A stretch of DNA of 39,374 nucleotides, taken from the IMG/VR virus record IMGVR_UViG_3300029009_000036, positions 1-39,374 of that record, one strand, 5' to 3'. Made by a program: the position numbers and the translations under genes. This DNA is from a virus (Duplodnaviria; Heunggongvirae; Uroviricota; Caudoviricetes). Positions within the stretch are counted from its first letter, which is position 1. Every line of letters starts with the position of its first letter. This document shows positions 23,157 to 32,433 of this stretch, piece after piece. The notes beneath the pieces were generated by a model. That model was not told where the DNA came from. It saw only the letters and a program-made list of their open reading frames with translations, and did no database searches.

Positions 23157-23507
23157 TTACTTCAGCCGTTCACGGGCCGTCTTCGCCTTATGACACGGCC
23201 AGCACAGGCTCTGCAGATTGCTGTCGGCATCAGTGCCGCCATGCGCTTTAGGGATGATGTGGTCAACGGTTTTCGCCTCGCGCACCACACCGGCACGCAA
23301 ACACAACTGACACAGGCCTTTGTCACGCTTTAGTACACGCCCCCGGATAACATCCCATTTCGAACCATAACCGCGCTGGTGTCGGGACTGGCCTGGCTTG
23401 TATTGCTTCCAGCCCTCGCTTTTGTGGCTTTCGCAATAACCTGACGGGTCAGTCGTGGTATGGCGGCAGCCGCGAACTCGGCAGGCTTTTGGGGTTCGTG
23501 GTGGCAT
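23157..23507 (-). CDS. HNH endonuclease (terminase-associated)
   Basis: 116 aa from ATG 23507 (GGAG 5 nt upstream): MPPRTPKACRVRGC...CQLCLRAGVVREAKTVDHIIPKAHGGTDADSNLQSLCWPCHKAK has CxxC...DHI.P...N...CxxCH HNH signature. The longer ORF to 23606 uses TTG inside the repeat. Confidence 0.8.
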   Translation of the reverse strand: MPPRTPKACRVRGCRHTTTDPSGYCESHKSEGWKQYKPGQSRHQRGYGSKWDVIRGRVLKRDKGLCQLCLRAGVVREAKTVDHIIPKAHGGTDADSNLQSLCWPCHKAKTARERLK

Positions 23508-24017
23508 ATGTACTCCAATGAAGAAGCTACCGACATAGCCTCCTCCATTCGTCGTGAAACTATTTTCATCTACCCAGTAATGAATTCTTTGAAGAGTCGA
23601 GATCAATACAACTCACTGATGGGAGAGGCTTGCCTCACGCGTGAGGCAAGCCTCCTGTTTGATTTACTGGACAGTATAGGGGGGCAGAATGCCTTCCTCA
23701 CTCGAATAACATCAATTACGGAGCTTCAACACGGGTCAGTCGTGGTATGGCGGCAGCCGCGAACTCGGCATGCTTTTGAGGTTCGAGGGAGCATATGTAC
23801 TCCAATGAAGAAGCCACCGACATAGTCTCCTCCATTCGTCGTGAAACTATTTTCATCTACCCAGTAATGAATTCTTTGAAGAGTCGAGATCAATACAACT
23901 CACTGATGGGAGAGGCTTGTCTCACGCGTGAGGCAAGTTTCCCGTGTGATTTACTTGACACTATAGAAGGACAGAATGCCTTCCTCACTCGAATAACATC
24001 AATTAAGGAGGTTCAAC
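23431..24017. repeat. Tandem direct duplication, ~287-bp unit, two copies plus junction fragment
   Basis: 23444-23730 and 23731-24017 align at ~90% identity; each unit carries the first ~21 codons of HNH and a long palindrome; junctions share tcg(c)aataac. Confidence 0.85.
23625..23654. repeat. 30-bp perfect palindrome (degenerate second copy at ~23911-23940)
   Basis: gaggcttgcctcacgcgtgaggcaagcctc is its own reverse complement; no adjacent U-run, so not a canonical intrinsic terminator. Confidence 0.8.
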
Positions 24018-24140
24018 ATGTTTCATTCCACAAGTCATCAGGCTGTAATTATGGTAGCATCAGTTTGTGCCACATACCTTTTCCGCTTCACTTTGAGTCT
24101 GATTCATTTCTACCTGACCGGCTCGCCTCTATCTTTCTAA
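24018..24140 (+). CDS. Hypothetical small hydrophobic peptide (40 aa), antisense to o-spanin 3' end
   Basis: Near-consensus SD taaggagg (24004-24011) 6 nt before ATG 24018; MFHSTSHQAVIMVASVCATYLFRFTLSLIHFYLTGSPLSF; no promoter identified. Confidence 0.25.
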   Translation: MFHSTSHQAVIMVASVCATYLFRFTLSLIHFYLTGSPLSF

Positions 24141-29412: not shown

Positions 29413-30062
29413 GCCGCCATCTCCCTGACCAGTTTTTCCGCCTGCTGGCGAACCTGCGCCAGAAACGCCTCACCACATGCCTCAAGTTCATCGCGCCCGA
29501 TGTAGCTGATTGCCGGTCCCTTCCAGGTCTTATCGAAAACAGCAATAGCACCAGCGAAGAAAGCGCCTGTCGGCACCTGCTTCTCATCCTTCGGGATAAA
29601 CCAGGCAGGCAGTTCAAAACCAATACGCCCGCGAATAAAAGCAATATGGTCCGCATCTTCCGGCCACCACACTTCGCTGGTGGCAGCTTTGATCAGGAAA
29701 ACATAGCGCCCACCCTTATCACGCATGGCACTGGCATGTTTCATGATGTAACGCATGCCGGTGATGTATTGCCCCTCATGCTGACTGGCGCGACTGTATG
29801 GGGGATTACCAAAGGCAGCCCCTTTAAGCTCCGCAAGACGTTCTGACCAGTCATGCGCCAGCGCGTTGTCTTCCGCCGTGTAATACGCAGCACATTTGGC
29901 GTTATCACCGTCAGTGAACAGATCCAGAACAAACGGGCCAAACAGGGTGTTAATTCCCCAGAAAATGTTGTCCGGCGTGCGCCACTGATCACCTACTTCC
30001 TTCAGTTCATGGGCTGGTTTGTTCCGCAGTTCCACCAGCGCCTGGCAATATTTATTACTCAT
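29409..30062 (-). CDS. Orphan DNA N6-adenine methyltransferase (phage Dam-like)
   Basis: ATG at 30062 overlaps upstream stop (TAATG); NPPY motif in ...FGNPPYSRASQ... Confidence 0.8.
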   Translation of the reverse strand: MSNKYCQALVELRNKPAHELKEVGDQWRTPDNIFWGINTLFGPFVLDLFTDGDNAKCAAYYTAEDNALAHDWSERLAELKGAAFGNPPYSRASQHEGQYITGMRYIMKHASAMRDKGGRYVFLIKAATSEVWWPEDADHIAFIRGRIGFELPAWFIPKDEKQVPTGAFFAGAIAVFDKTWKGPAISYIGRDELEACGEAFLAQVRQQAEKLVREMAA

Positions 30063-30550
30063 TAAGCCCCCACGTAATTCCCTGACAGATACCACTCATC
30101 ACCCGATACAGCGCGCTTGCTGCTTTTCCGTAAACACTGCTCACGACGCGCCAGAAAATTGTTTCGTTCTGGCTGGGAGTGGCTTTCACGGAATGCCGCT
30201 ATCCACACCGTTGCAGCACGACGGTATAAGCCCCTGGACTCCAGTTCTTCCGCCTGGCGGGTCAGGCACAAAATCACCCGGGGATCGTTAGTGCCGACAT
30301 AGAAATTGCGCACAGGTCTGGTTTCACGAACTGGTTGTGGTTCCGGCTCCTGCGCTCTCTCAGTCAGGCGTGGGAAATGTCTGCGTGTATCTCCTTCACA
30401 ACGGTGAGCCACACGCCCACTCTGACGTAACTTGCTTGCTGACTGCAGAACGCGCTGCCGTGAGTAACCTGCAAAAGCATCCGCAATGTCTCCGGAAGTA
30501 CACCCCGGATGGGCTTCAATGAATTTCTGAACGTCATTCAAAAGACTCAT
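30062..30550 (-). CDS. Hypothetical early protein (YfdN-like; PerC/ANR-like motif, unverified)
   Basis: 162 aa from ATG 30550 (GTG 30556 alternative); ...AEELESRGLYRRAATVWIAAF... resembles the PerC-type motif; same size and neighbourhood as K-12 CPS-53 yfdN from memory. Confidence 0.5.
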   Translation of the reverse strand: MSLLNDVQKFIEAHPGCTSGDIADAFAGYSRQRVLQSASKLRQSGRVAHRCEGDTRRHFPRLTERAQEPEPQPVRETRPVRNFYVGTNDPRVILCLTRQAEELESRGLYRRAATVWIAAFRESHSQPERNNFLARREQCLRKSSKRAVSGDEWYLSGNYVGA

Positions 30551-30552
30551 GA

Positions 30553-31371
30553 TCACCCCCTGAATCCTGCCGGGATCTGGCTGTAGTCCACATTGTCGTA
30601 ACTGGCTTTGAAGTACGGGTCTTCACGTCTGGCTGCAGATACCGCAGGAACTTCCCAGGATTCTTCGAAATGACGATCCGGACCAAAGAACGTGACAGCC
30701 TGTTTCACAAATTGTGTGCCGCTGTTACCCATCGCAGATACCCAGCCCGCGTAGCGTTTCACACCTTCCAGCATGGTTTCGGGGTTTACCCCCTCATTCA
30801 AACGGGCTTTCCAGGCTTTGAAGGCTGCAGATTTTGAATTGCCACCAGCACGTTTGGGATATGCCAGCCATGCCTGCTCAAACTCCGGAGAGTATTCCGG
30901 TCGGTTTGAACGAACTCGCACGGACTCATCAACTGATGCACCAACAGCTATTGGTTCATTGACTGGTTCTTTGACTGGTTCAAAAGAGTGACTGGTTCTG
31001 GGTGAATCTCCTGCACTACCCCCTGGTGCAACTCCTGCACTACCTAGTGAATTTGCTGCACCAGATAGTGAATTATTTGCACTACCCCCTAGTGAATCTC
31101 CTGCACCATCCAGATGAAGGAGATAGATATTACTTGAGTTACCTTTTTCACCTTTCCGGGTGACTTTTTTCACCAGCCCGGACTCACAAAGGGCCGCAAT
31201 ATGATTCATCACAGAACGTTTGCTAATCTCGCACTGGTCAGCAATATGCTGGTAGCTGGGCCAGCACTCACCCTGATCGCTGGCATTATCAGCCAGCTTG
31301 ATCAGAACCAGTTTTCGCAATGGATTACCCACTCGAATTTTCATCGCTTTAACCATCAGCTCCATACTCAT
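30553..31371 (-). CDS. Replication initiation protein (N-terminal HTH, lambda O-like organisation)
   Basis: 272 aa, ATG at 31371; N-terminal winged-helix-like region; central low-complexity linker GDSLGGSANNSLSGAANSLGSAGVAPGGSAGDSP encoded by iteron repeats. Confidence 0.75.
   Translation of the reverse strand: MSMELMVKAMKIRVGNPLRKLVLIKLADNASDQGECWPSYQHIADQCEISKRSVMNHIAALCESGLVKKVTRKGEKGNSSNIYLLHLDGAGDSLGGSANNSLSGAANSLGSAGVAPGGSAGDSPRTSHSFEPVKEPVNEPIAVGASVDESVRVRSNRPEYSPEFEQAWLAYPKRAGGNSKSAAFKAWKARLNEGVNPETMLEGVKRYAGWVSAMGNSGTQFVKQAVTFFGPDRHFEESWEVPAVSAARREDPYFKASYDNVDYSQIPAGFRG
30959..31110. repeat. Iteron cluster (putative origin of replication) inside replication gene
   Basis: Three copies of tgactggttc (30960-30969, 30972-30981, 30989-30998) followed by five ~21-24-bp repeats of agtgaat..ctgcac(t/c)a between 31002 and 31110. 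Confidence 0.6.
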
Positions 31372-31604
31372 GCTGCACCTCCGAGATGCTTCATGTTTTT
31401 TCCGGAGCGAAAGGCTATAAGCGGCATACTGACGCGGTAATTACGGCCCAGCGGTTCACAAATCACCTTCTGGCATTCACGGTCAACCAGGCTAACACGT
31501 AGAACATGCCCTGCAGGCGTGGTGTACCACTGCCCAACTGTAGGAATTGATGTTTTTTTACGCTGAAGCAAACGGCAAATATTGAGGATCAACGGATTAA
31601 GCAT
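31368..31604 (-). CDS. Small hypothetical early protein
   Basis: 78 aa, ATG at 31604, 4-nt overlaps with both neighbours. Confidence 0.4.
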   Translation of the reverse strand: MLNPLILNICRLLQRKKTSIPTVGQWYTTPAGHVLRVSLVDRECQKVICEPLGRNYRVSMPLIAFRSGKNMKHLGGAA

Positions 31605-32433
31605 GACGATGCCCTCCGCTGATATTCAGGAGACGGTGAATATGAAAATTAGCCTTATCCGCCAAACGAATACGTTCAGCCTGCAATTTAAGAAGTGTTT
31701 CTACCAGAACCTGATGCGCCTGCGGATCCGAAAGAGTTACCTTGCGCAGAGCACGTAGTGCAGTTGTTACATAACTGAGTTTATGTAAGTCTTCATCATT
31801 CAGACGAGCGAGGGTTGGGAGAGTAGTCATGGTGACAGCCCCTATGTTGAATTCAAAGAACTCACCACATGGGACGCCAATCACAGAGGTGGTGAGACGT
31901 ACAGGGTTGGCGTAACCGGTCAACATAGAACCCGGCGCATCTTGCGATGCCCCTGCACGCCCCACCATAATTTGGACGTAGCAATGCTCATGATACGAAA
32001 AAACCGCATGAGCGCGGTTATGCTCTATATTGAATTCCAGGACGCCAATCCCGACACCCGCTTTATAAGGTGCCTGAACAGTGTAACGTCCCGGAATGGC
32101 AGAATCAATGTGCTGGTGGTCCTTCACACTCAACAAAATCACGCCTGAATTTCCACAAAGGACTAAAGCACTCATGCGGGTAGTCTTTGCGAAGATAGAT
32201 AACGCGCTGTGTTTCTGGCTCCCAACGAATAACATGAACATAAAGTCCTCTTCCGTCACGAAACCAGCGGTTAAGTTCCTGCACAACTCGCCCCCCACAG
32301 TCAGGTAAAGTTCTCTGTGGTTACTTACAGCCAGGTGATTTGGTAATCTGCATTCATGCCGTAACAACAGGTGTTCAGCGACGCTGACCACCAGCTGTTG
32401 CGACAAACGGTTATTTGCCGTTAAACTGTTCAT
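31597..32433 (-). CDS. Hypothetical early protein
   Basis: 278 aa, ATG at 32433; no domain recognised by eye. Confidence 0.5.
   Translation of the reverse strand: MNSLTANNRLSQQLVVSVAEHLLLRHECRLPNHLAVSNHRELYLTVGGELCRNLTAGFVTEEDFMFMLFVGSQKHSALSIFAKTTRMSALVLCGNSGVILLSVKDHQHIDSAIPGRYTVQAPYKAGVGIGVLEFNIEHNRAHAVFSYHEHCYVQIMVGRAGASQDAPGSMLTGYANPVRLTTSVIGVPCGEFFEFNIGAVTMTTLPTLARLNDEDLHKLSYVTTALRALRKVTLSDPQAHQVLVETLLKLQAERIRLADKANFHIHRLLNISGGHRHA

What the first reader, a model, noticed from the sequence alone, without database searches (positions are those of the whole stretch)
30959..31110. Two families of iterons embedded in the replication initiator gene
Three tgactggttc repeats and five ~21-24-bp agtgaat/ctgcac repeats lie inside the replication gene, encoding its Gly/Ser/Ala-rich linker, as with lambda ori inside O. 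This is the probable origin.
Basis: partly seen in the sequence, partly recalled or inferred. Interest (0 to 1): 0.4.

Follow-up and report, generated by a model that had tools for sequence, protein, structure and literature searches.

The report
Prophage replication origin inside initiator gene
The repeats are real and are very probably the replication origin of an SfV-type lambdoid prophage, built like phage lambda's origin inside gene O but in an unrelated initiator family, next to a DNA block that stays almost unchanged in related phages across the Gammaproteobacteria.

Summary
Window 30950-31108 lies in the linker-coding part of a 272-aa phage initiator (30553-31371, minus strand; 99.6% identical to SfV orf39). 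It holds five 15-bp dyads (GTGMA-N5-TGCAC, 21/24-bp spacing) and three exact TGACTGGTTC decamers. Neither motif occurs elsewhere in the 39 kb.

Comparative evidence supports an origin:
- Homologues all carry 3-7 dyads at the same gene position.
- The half-site sequence changes with the winged-helix recognition helix.
- Third-codon variation collapses in the repeats (0.17 and 0.12, against 0.52-0.58 in the flanks).
- Natural chimeras join this module to a lambda-O C-terminal domain followed by a lambda-P homologue.

The decamers are not a second lineage-specific iteron set. They belong to a ~45-nt block that stays near-invariant, with the same codons used, in phages of Enterobacterales, Vibrio, Pseudomonas, Shewanella and Haemophilus. 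The block sits where lambda has its AT-rich unwinding region, and its role is inferred, not shown.

There is no strong AT-rich tract, no DnaA boxes, and no helicase or loader gene. I classify it as a new member of a known kind. Replication function remains untested.

The parts
30553..31371 (-). Replication initiator gene (272 aa), matching SfV orf39 'replication protein'. It is the only replication gene in the early-right operon.
   Evidence: ORF. Pfam HTH_36 at 44.1 bits (cut-off 25) and PHROG 270 'replication initiation protein' at 3e-88. 99.6% identical to SfV orf39 and 100% covered in phage Ayreon. The neighbouring genes are PerC-like, Dam, LexA-like and RusA, with no helicase or loader.
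31108..31371 (-). Coding region for the N-terminal winged-helix DNA-binding domain (aa 1-88). The putative recognition helix ISKRSVMNHIAAL (aa 49-61) is encoded at 31189-31227.
   Evidence: HTH_36 match at aa 17-67. In alignment A1, aa 1-47 are nearly invariant while the helix is variable. The low-confidence AF2 model gives helices at 40-46 and 51-63 and a beta-hairpin at 67-87.
31002..31106 (.). Array of five 15-bp dyads GTG(A/C)A-N5-TGCAC at 31002-31016, 31026-31040, 31047-31061, 31068-31082 and 31092-31106, spaced 24, 21, 21 and 24 bp. These are the putative initiator-binding iterons.
   Evidence: locate them. The half-site co-varies with the recognition helix across three collections. Third-position polymorphism is 0.17 here against 0.52-0.58 in the flanks. 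Copy number ranges from 4 to 7 among close relatives.
30950..31001 (.). Family-wide conserved junction block. On the coding strand it reads CCC-AGAACCAGTCAC-TCTTTT-GAACCAGTCA-AA-GAACCAGTCA-AT-GAACCAAT. It contains the three TGACTGGTTC decamers (30960, 30972, 30989) and a partial fourth (30950-30957).
   Evidence: Identical-codon fraction is 0.96 here against 0.38 in the N-terminal codons, using motif-blind representatives. Copy number ranges from 1 to 5. In the L017/L122 chimeras it occupies the slot of lambda's AT-rich region.
31120..31149 (.). Least stable 30-mer of the gene (GAGATAGATATTACTTGAGTTACCTTTTTC). It adjoins the dyad array on the N-terminal side and is an alternative candidate unwinding site.
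   Evidence: Nearest-neighbour profile gives dG -32.5 kcal/mol, the 99th percentile of the window. The stretch 31107-31147 is 66% AT.
30556..30939 (-). Coding region for the C-terminal domain (aa 145-272). It is presumed to be the host-replisome or helicase-recruiting domain.
   Evidence: It matches the C-terminal parts of PHROGs 26426, 3729, 1701 ('DnaD-like helicase loader') and 9327 ('primosomal protein'). It has no Pfam or NCBIfam match. It is one of at least 8 unrelated C-terminal classes fused after the same junction, and the class tracks the type of the next gene.

Best explanation
This is the vegetative replication origin of an SfV-type lambdoid prophage. It lies inside the linker-coding part of the phage's single replication gene.

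**Shown by sequence and comparison:**
- The initiator has an N-terminal HTH_36 winged-helix domain, a repetitive linker, and a C-terminal domain.
- The linker DNA carries five 15-bp dyads followed by a conserved block of GAACCAGTCA direct repeats.
- Both elements are under DNA-level selection.
- Dyad sequence tracks the recognition helix.
- The module is interchangeable with lambda's N-terminal O domain plus ori-lambda.

**Inferred:**
- Initiator dimers bind the five dyads, one dimer per dyad. The half-sites sit 10-14 bp apart along one face of the DNA, forming an O-some-like complex.
- This complex destabilises an adjacent segment. The best candidate is the conserved junction block, which sits where lambda and P22 have their conserved AT-rich block. 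The weakly stable 31120-31149 stretch is the alternative.
- The C-terminal domain then brings in the host helicase. This phage encodes no helicase or loader, so that is presumably DnaB, with or without DnaC.
- Rightward early transcription runs through the site, as in lambda.
For: 1. The repeats are real and unique to this spot.
2. The host gene is a phage replication initiator.
3. All 11 HTH_36-type homologues examined from the phage collection have 3-5 repeats at 21/24-bp spacing at the same gene position. All are dyads, with lineage-specific sequence.
4. Helix and half-site co-vary. For example: ISKRSVMNHI with GTGCA, I(G/S)RSTVKxHI with GGGCA, IDRSTVR(K/R)HI with TAGGC, CSKSAVRNHI with TGCCA, CSKSAVRDHI with GCATA. 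Gene pairs share the same half-site 79% of the time when the helix is the same and 10% when it differs. The figure is 76% when the helix is the same but the backbone is under 90% identical, and 36% when the helix differs on a backbone at least 90% identical.
5. Dyads persist where their reading frame shifts (mEp013, L256, L236).
6. Among 62 unique SfV-type genes, third-position polymorphism is 0.52 (N-terminal) and 0.58 (C-terminal), but 0.17 in the iterons and 0.12 in the junction. Iteron and decamer copy numbers vary.
7. The junction keeps the same codons (AGA ACC AGT CAC TCT TTT GAA CCA GTC). The identical-codon fraction is 0.96 against 0.38 in the equally conserved N-terminal domain, using motif-blind representatives. 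It is found in more than 120 viral contigs and 94 species genomes, including Pseudomonas.
8. In chimeras L017 and L122, this N-terminal domain, dyads and junction are followed 3 residues later by a lambda-O C-terminal domain (51% identity, E 1e-34), then a lambda-P homologue (49%, E 4e-58).
9. Control: lambda's annotated iterons have the same layout (39-48% into the gene, 20-24-bp spacing). In both lambda and P22, lineage-specific iterons are followed by a shared conserved block.
Against: - No experiment exists. No record annotates an origin here, and I found no paper describing one.
- The window has no lambda-like high-AT tract. The 40 nt after the junction are 57% AT, against 78% in lambda, and the lowest GC in any 60-nt window is about 0.42.
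- There are no DnaA boxes above chance and none nearby.
- No helicase or loader gene is present, so helicase recruitment is entirely inferred.
- The role of the junction block is unknown. Its position at the boundary between exchangeable modules would also fit a recombination hotspot.
- The 15-bp dyad register is one of two possible ways to pair the alternating half-sites.
Confidence: 0.8

Rival explanations
1. The repeats are only a by-product of a repetitive, flexible peptide linker made by slippage or duplication, and the DNA itself has no function.
For: All five dyad units in the window are in frame, with 21/24-bp spacing, and they encode a Gly/Ser/Ala-rich low-complexity stretch. The AF2 model predicts no structure for aa 88-161, at low confidence.
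Against: - Third-codon positions are the least variable in the repeats, not the most (0.17 and 0.12 against 0.52-0.58). First-position, amino-acid-changing differences are tolerated between dyads.
- The units are palindromic, which a peptide repeat does not require.
- The half-site tracks the recognition helix.
- Dyads and decamers occur in different frames.
- Junction codons stay identical even in Pseudomonas.
Confidence: 0.03
2. The dyads are real initiator-binding sites, but they serve autoregulation, copy-number control or a transcription roadblock. DNA synthesis starts elsewhere.
For: In plasmids, iterons are involved in both replication and partitioning (PMC2647930), and inverted repeats typically act as operators (my general knowledge). 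The window has no strong AT-rich tract beside the array.
Against: - No other repeat cluster of this kind exists in the window.
- The array sits exactly where lambda and P22 carry their mapped or annotated origins.
- The chimeras swap it for ori-lambda together with the O N-terminal domain.
- No promoter-like site lies near the array.
Confidence: 0.1
3. The invariant GAACCAGTCA block is conserved mainly because it is a homologous-recombination linker at which N-terminal (origin-specific) and C-terminal (helicase-specific) modules are exchanged. It has no role in initiation. This rival concerns the junction only.
For: At least 8 unrelated C-terminal classes follow the same block, and a single helix class occurs with several of them. 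Sequence information falls from above 1.5 bits to about 0.1 bit immediately after the block.
Against: - Recombination alone does not explain purifying selection on a decamer repeated in two reading frames, with a fixed 17/12-bp spacing and a conserved spacer, across orders from Pasteurellales to Pseudomonadales.
- Lambda and P22 likewise keep a conserved block after their iterons, and strand separation and DnaB loading occur within that AT-rich region (PMC3349717).
- The two roles are not mutually exclusive.
Confidence: 0.15
4. Selection acts on the mRNA or on single-stranded DNA, for example through hairpins or a translational pause at the rare AGA codon, rather than on duplex DNA recognition.
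For: The dyads could form 5-bp hairpins. The junction begins with the rare AGA codon, which is conserved everywhere.
Against: - Folding the 176-nt region as RNA (coding strand) or as DNA (plus strand) gives z = -0.63 in both cases, no better than shuffles.
- All dyads within a gene share one specific half-site, which tracks the protein helix. Hairpins would need only complementarity.
- The decamers are direct repeats and cannot pair with each other.
Confidence: 0.03

Closest known systems
Phage lambda ori-lambda inside gene O (four 18-bp iterons plus a 38-bp AT-rich region; O and P proteins)
   Same: - The origin lies inside the initiator ORF, between an N-terminal DNA-binding domain and a C-terminal recruiting domain.
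- It has 4-5 dyad-symmetric repeats at roughly 20-24-bp spacing, about 35-48% into the gene, followed by a block conserved between phages (PMC3349717).
- Natural chimeras join this module to a lambda-O C-terminal domain followed by a lambda-P homologue.
   Different: - The initiator belongs to another Pfam family: HTH_36 (PF13730), not Phage_rep_O (PF04492). There is no significant sequence similarity.
- The block after the iterons is a moderately AT-rich direct-repeat element (57% AT in the next 40 nt), not a 78% AT tract.
- There is no P gene or any helicase or loader gene.
Phage P22 gene 18 origin and phage L gene 18 repeats
   Same: P22 has an annotated rep_origin inside the initiator gene, with lineage-specific repeats followed by an AT-rich block. 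For phage L, the in-gene repeats are proposed as the origin on the same reasoning used here (PMC8022706).
   Different: P22 gp18 is a Phage_rep_O protein paired with a DnaB-type helicase, gp12. It has no similarity to the window protein. Its repeats are short direct repeats, not 15-bp dyads.
Iteron-type plasmid origins (Rep protein, direct-repeat iterons, AT-rich repeats, DnaA boxes)
   Same: Both have clustered initiator-binding repeats next to a short-repeat region, a winged-helix initiator, and variable repeat copy number (general description in PMC2647930).
   Different: The repeats here are dyads inside the initiator's coding sequence. There are no DnaA boxes, no Rep_3-type domain, and no high-AT repeats.
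'Eru6' replication-region type of Shiga-toxin phages (representative Stx2a_WGPS2, AP012537)
   Same: It is the same DNA: 98.6% identity over 87% of the 1.3-kb query. The Eru typing comes from PMC8951638.
   Different: That work typed the genes next to cI. A term search of both Eru papers found no mention of iterons and no description of an origin.

Membership tests
Lambda-type in-gene phage origin (functional class) | Clustered initiator-binding repeats inside the initiator ORF, between its DNA-binding and recruiting domains | tested here: met
   Five dyads at 31002-31106, at 32-45% of the gene. Lambda's iterons lie at 39-48%.
Lambda-type in-gene phage origin (functional class) | Repeat sequence is specific to, and co-varies with, the initiator's DNA-binding domain | tested here: met
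   Helix and half-site concordance is 0.79 against 0.10, and it holds after controlling for backbone identity.
Lambda-type in-gene phage origin (functional class) | Adjacent high-AT unwinding region | tested here: not met
   The 40 nt after the junction are 57% AT, against 78% in lambda. No 60-nt window falls below 0.42 GC. The weakest 30-mer (31120-31149) lies on the other side of the array. Several relatives do reach 65-75% AT there.
Lambda-type in-gene phage origin (functional class) | The fragment supports replication when the initiator is supplied in trans | not testable with these tools
   Requires an experiment.
Phage_rep_O protein family (PF04492: lambda O, P22 gp18) | Match to the Phage_rep_O profile, or sequence similarity to lambda O or P22 gp18 | tested here: not met
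   The window protein has no PF04492 hit. Lambda O scores 123 bits and P22 gp18 scores 129 bits. BLASTP comparisons with both are not significant.
HTH_36 (PF13730) / PHROG 270 phage replication initiators | Profile match above the curated threshold | tested here: met
   PF13730 at 44.1 bits (cut-off 25), aa 17-67. phrog_270 at E 3e-88 over aa 3-271.
Iteron plasmid origins (Rep_3-type) | DnaA boxes and a Rep_3-type initiator domain | tested here: not met
   There are 31 DnaA-box-like matches against 32.7 expected, with none near the array. No Rep_3 hit.
Initiator-only replication module (no phage helicase or loader; category recalled from the phage replication-module literature, not checked in a paper here) | No helicase, loader or primase gene next to the initiator | tested here: met
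   The downstream genes are PerC-like, Dam, LexA-like and RusA. The most common gene found after this C-terminal class is PerC-like, while other C-terminal classes are followed by P-like, DnaB-, DnaC- or primase-type genes.

The most novel reading that the evidence does not exclude
The ~45-nt GAACCAGTCA block could be a sequence-defined, non-AT-rich origin element: an opening site, a helicase-entry site or a second recognition site. It would be read by something common to all these phages, either the invariant part of the initiator (aa 1-47 or the encoded RTSHSFEPV peptide region) or a conserved host factor. That would explain why it is kept base-for-base from Haemophilus to Pseudomonas while the neighbouring iterons diverge freely. 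If so, origin opening here would work differently from the AT-rich unwinding elements of lambda and plasmids.
Probability: 0.3. Interest if true: 0.65.

Novelty: new member of a known kind. Interest (0 to 1): 0.45.

Why it matters
- **Reach.** This gives a concrete, testable origin for a replication module found in 922 of 5,426 complete E. coli genomes. It is also found in the serotype-converting Shigella phage SfV and in Stx2-converting phages. RefSeq labels the gene only 'helix-turn-helix domain-containing protein', and no origin is annotated in the SfV or Ayreon records.
- **Specificity pairs.** The family provides more than ten natural pairs of recognition helix and 5-bp half-site. These form a ready-made data set for winged-helix DNA specificity and for predicting replication incompatibility between co-resident prophages.
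- **Search handle.** The invariant 45-nt block is a simple way to find prophage origins across the Gammaproteobacteria.
- **Open question.** The block is also a candidate for asking how an origin opens without a strongly AT-rich element or a phage-encoded helicase loader.

Tried and rejected
- **DnaA boxes.** TTATNCACA with up to 1 mismatch gave 31 matches against 32.7 expected, with none near the array.
- **Promoters and terminators.** No sigma-70-like promoters were found in 30300-31900. One terminator-like hairpin was found, against 1.6 expected.
- **Single-strand structure.** Folding gave z = -0.63 for both RNA and DNA.
- **Solved structures.** A sequence search against solved structures found nothing significant.
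- **C-terminal domain.** NCBIfam and Pfam found no match.
- **Structure prediction.** Single-sequence AlphaFold2 gave pLDDT 40, too poor for a fold search.
- **First motif-blind retrieval.** The first locus retrieval returned only near-identical SfV-type loci. I re-ranked against another lineage instead.
- **Literature.** Searches for the decamer, SfV with origin and iterons, the Eru types, and replication modules found no description of this origin. The original SfV genome paper was not in the library under the id I tried.
- **Outlying sites.** The apparent enrichment of lineage-matched half-sites upstream of the array came mostly from imperfect array units, so it does not show flanking sites.
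- **Frameshift idea.** A -1 frameshift at UCU UUU GA was rejected, because Vibrio and Serratia relatives have TTA or CTT at that position.

Full report
**Observation**

The region reads exactly as described. Three exact TGACTGGTTC decamers lie at 30960, 30972 and 30989. Their spacings are 12 and 17 bp, so the third copy is in a different codon phase, and a partial fourth copy sits at 30950-30957. Five units of 21/24 bp span 30998-31108.

Each unit contains a 15-bp dyad, GTG(A/C)A-N5-TGCAC. The pattern occurs five times in the 39,374-bp window, all at 31002-31106. The decamer occurs three times, all at 30960-30998. By my arithmetic the expected exact counts are about 0.3 and 0.08.

All of this lies inside ORF 30553-31371 (minus strand, 272 aa). 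It encodes the stretch GAGDSLGGSANNSLSGAANSLGSAGVAPGGSAGDSPRTSHSFEPVKEPVNEP.

**Context**

The window is an SfV/Ayreon-type lambdoid prophage. A 1.3-kb query around the gene matches phage Ayreon (99.2%), Stx2c-converting phages (99.1%) and Shigella phage SfV (98.0%). The protein is 99.6% identical to SfV orf39, annotated 'replication protein'.

It matches Pfam HTH_36 (aa 17-67, 44.1 bits against a cut-off of 25) and PHROG 270 'replication initiation protein' (3e-88). The operon runs: cI, then cro, a CII-like gene, an Ash/Rha-like gene, a 78-aa ORF, the initiator, a PerC-like gene, Dam, a LexA-like gene and RusA. No helicase, loader or primase gene is present. Neither the SfV nor the Ayreon record annotates an origin.

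The region corresponds to the 'Eru6' replication type of Shiga-toxin phages. Term searches of the two Eru papers found no mention of iterons and no description of an origin.

**Comparative anatomy**

I examined twelve phage-collection relatives retrieved by protein similarity, at 30-96% identity. The eleven with an HTH_36-type N-terminal domain all have 3-5 repeats at 21/24-bp spacing at the same gene position, immediately after the winged-helix domain. All are dyads, but the sequence is lineage-specific:
- GTGAC-N5-GTCAC in Vibrio D67
- GGGCA-N5-TGCCC in phiXuzhou21
- GCACA-N5-TGTGC in Salmonella S107
- GCATA-N5-TATGC in Stenotrophomonas BUCT709

The twelfth relative, Stx1_EH1992, shares only the C-terminal domain. 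Its N-terminus is unrelated and it carries different 12-bp repeats.

Across 169 unique genes from three collections, the commonest half-site follows the 11-residue recognition-helix string. Gene pairs share a half-site 79% of the time when the helix is the same, and 10% when it differs. Controlling for the backbone, the figure is 76% for the same helix on a backbone under 90% identical, and 36% for a different helix on a backbone at least 90% identical. Dyads persist in lineages where their spacing is not a multiple of three. This is the behaviour expected of initiator-binding iterons.

**DNA-level selection**

Among 62 unique SfV-type genes of equal length, the fraction of polymorphic third-codon positions differs sharply by region:

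| Region | Polymorphic third positions |
|---|---|
| N-terminal domain | 0.52 |
| C-terminal domain | 0.58 |
| Iterons | 0.17 |
| Junction | 0.12 |

First-position, amino-acid-changing differences are common between dyads. The usual coding pattern is therefore reversed: the DNA is constrained and the peptide is tolerant. Copy number varies among close relatives, with 4-7 dyads and 1-5 decamers. Folding the region as RNA or as DNA gives z = -0.63, so single-strand structure does not explain the dyads.

**The decamers are a different kind of element**

GAACCAGTCA-N7-GAACCAGTCA (coding strand) is identical in phages of E. coli, Salmonella, Vibrio, Stenotrophomonas and Serratia, although their dyads differ.

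In two motif-blind sets, retrieved using N-terminal peptide patterns only, the exact double motif is present in 76 of 80 and 50 of 60 parsed genes. In 15 motif-blind representatives under 90% identical to each other, pairs with the same amino acid use the same codon 96% of the time in the nine junction codons (AGA ACC AGT CAC TCT TTT GAA CCA GTC). The figure is 38% in the equally conserved N-terminal codons 1-47.

The exact pattern occurs in more than 120 viral contigs and in 94 species-representative genomes, where about one hit is expected by chance. About 70 of the 80 genomic loci fetched have the same gene architecture. They include many Pseudomonas, Xenorhabdus, Photorhabdus, Shewanella, Marinomonas and Haemophilus. 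About 6 are unrelated tandem repeats in non-gammaproteobacterial MAGs.

Positions the search did not fix are also conserved: position -1, the 7-nt spacer at 1.5 bits, and a third GAACC. Information then drops to about 0.1 bit. The block is therefore about 45 nt long: CCC-AGAACCAGTCAC-TCTTTT-GAACCAGTCA-AT-GAACC-TAAA.

**Module logic**

At least 8 unrelated C-terminal domains follow the block. The next gene tracks the C-terminal class: a P-like loader, a DnaB-type helicase, a DnaC-like protein, a primase-helicase, or, for the SfV class, no replication gene.

In two loci (L017, L122), the HTH_36 domain, four GTGAA-N5-TTCAC dyads and the junction are followed 3 residues later by a lambda-O C-terminal domain (51% identity, E 1e-34). 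A lambda-P homologue comes next (49% identity, E 4e-58). The module thus replaces lambda's N-terminal O domain together with ori-lambda. This is the strongest indirect argument that the module contains an origin.

**Controls**

Lambda's annotated iterons lie at 39-48% of gene O, with 20/24/23-bp spacing and in mixed frames. They are followed by a 78% AT stretch, and strand separation and DnaB loading occur within that AT-rich region (PMC3349717).

P22 has an annotated origin inside gene 18. Lambda and P22 have different iterons but share the block ACACAAAAGACA.TAT.ACAAAAGA immediately after them. A variable array followed by a conserved block is therefore common to both families.

The window protein is not a Phage_rep_O member and shows no significant similarity to lambda O or P22 gp18.

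**What does not fit a lambda copy**

The window has no high-AT tract. The 40 nt after the junction are 57% AT, and no 60-nt window falls below 0.42 GC. The least stable 30-mer of the gene (31120-31149, 99th percentile of the window) lies on the other side of the array. Several relatives do have 65-75% AT immediately after the junction. DnaA boxes are at chance level, and no promoter-like site is nearby.

**Mechanism**

- **Shown:** an initiator gene with an internal dyad array and a conserved block, both under DNA-level selection. Dyad specificity tracks the recognition helix.
- **Inferred:** initiator dimers bind the dyads and form an O-some-like complex. An adjacent segment opens, most likely the junction block by positional analogy, or else 31120-31149. 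The C-terminal domain recruits the host helicase directly. Early rightward transcription passes through the site.
- **Confidence:** I put the origin reading at about 0.8 and the 'junction is the opening or loading site' reading at about 0.3-0.4. The main alternative for the junction is a recombination linker between exchangeable modules. The two roles could coexist.

**Novelty and verdict**

In-gene iteron origins are textbook for lambda and P22, and have been proposed on sequence grounds for phage L (PMC8022706). This case has the same kind of layout in a different initiator family. I found no description of the origin, the helix-to-dyad pairing or the invariant block.

The element is common, present in 922 of 5,426 complete E. 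coli genomes, where the gene is labelled only 'helix-turn-helix domain-containing protein'. I classify it as a new member of a known kind.

Noticed in passing
window 30312-30402 (inside the PerC-like gene 30062-30556, minus strand): Weak echoes of the origin block lie in the next gene's inter-domain linker (EPEPQPVRETRPV). Repeat families D3, D4, D5 and D10 pair this stretch with 30944-31019 at 72-83% identity. A 1-mismatch dyad, GTGTATCTCCTTCAC, lies at 30385-30399. This could be chance or a vestigial or secondary initiator site.
   Followed up: no
window 31148-31174: TCACC-N6-GGTGA-N6-TCACC forms three alternating half-sites that resemble the iteron half-site. They lie in the wing-coding part of the initiator gene, on the far side of the least stable 30-mer (31120-31149) from the array. 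A family-wide test for lineage-matched outlying half-sites was not convincing.
   Followed up: partly
L390 (phage P22) 1405-1425; L295 (lambda) 820-860: P22's last origin repeat reads GAATCAGTCAAAC. Its 12-nt core GAATCAGTCAAA differs at one position from GAACCAGTCAAA in the window, which is probably coincidence. Lambda and P22 share a near-identical AT-rich block after their different iterons.
   Followed up: partly
window 23444-24018: A 287-bp tandem duplication is present, with 2.0 copies at 93% identity. It is unrelated to the finding and was not examined.
   Followed up: no
window 31368-31604 (minus strand): A 78-aa ORF (PHROG 1153, function unknown) overlaps the initiator start codon by 4 nt, which suggests translational coupling. 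A small ORF precedes the initiator in most relatives, but it is not always homologous.
   Followed up: no
plasmid collection hits H72, H73, H75, H76, H78, H79: Several 33-45-kb records filed as 'plasmids' (E. coli, Salmonella, Klebsiella, Microbulbifer, Shewanella) carry this initiator and origin block. They may be circular phage genomes or phage-plasmids.
   Followed up: no
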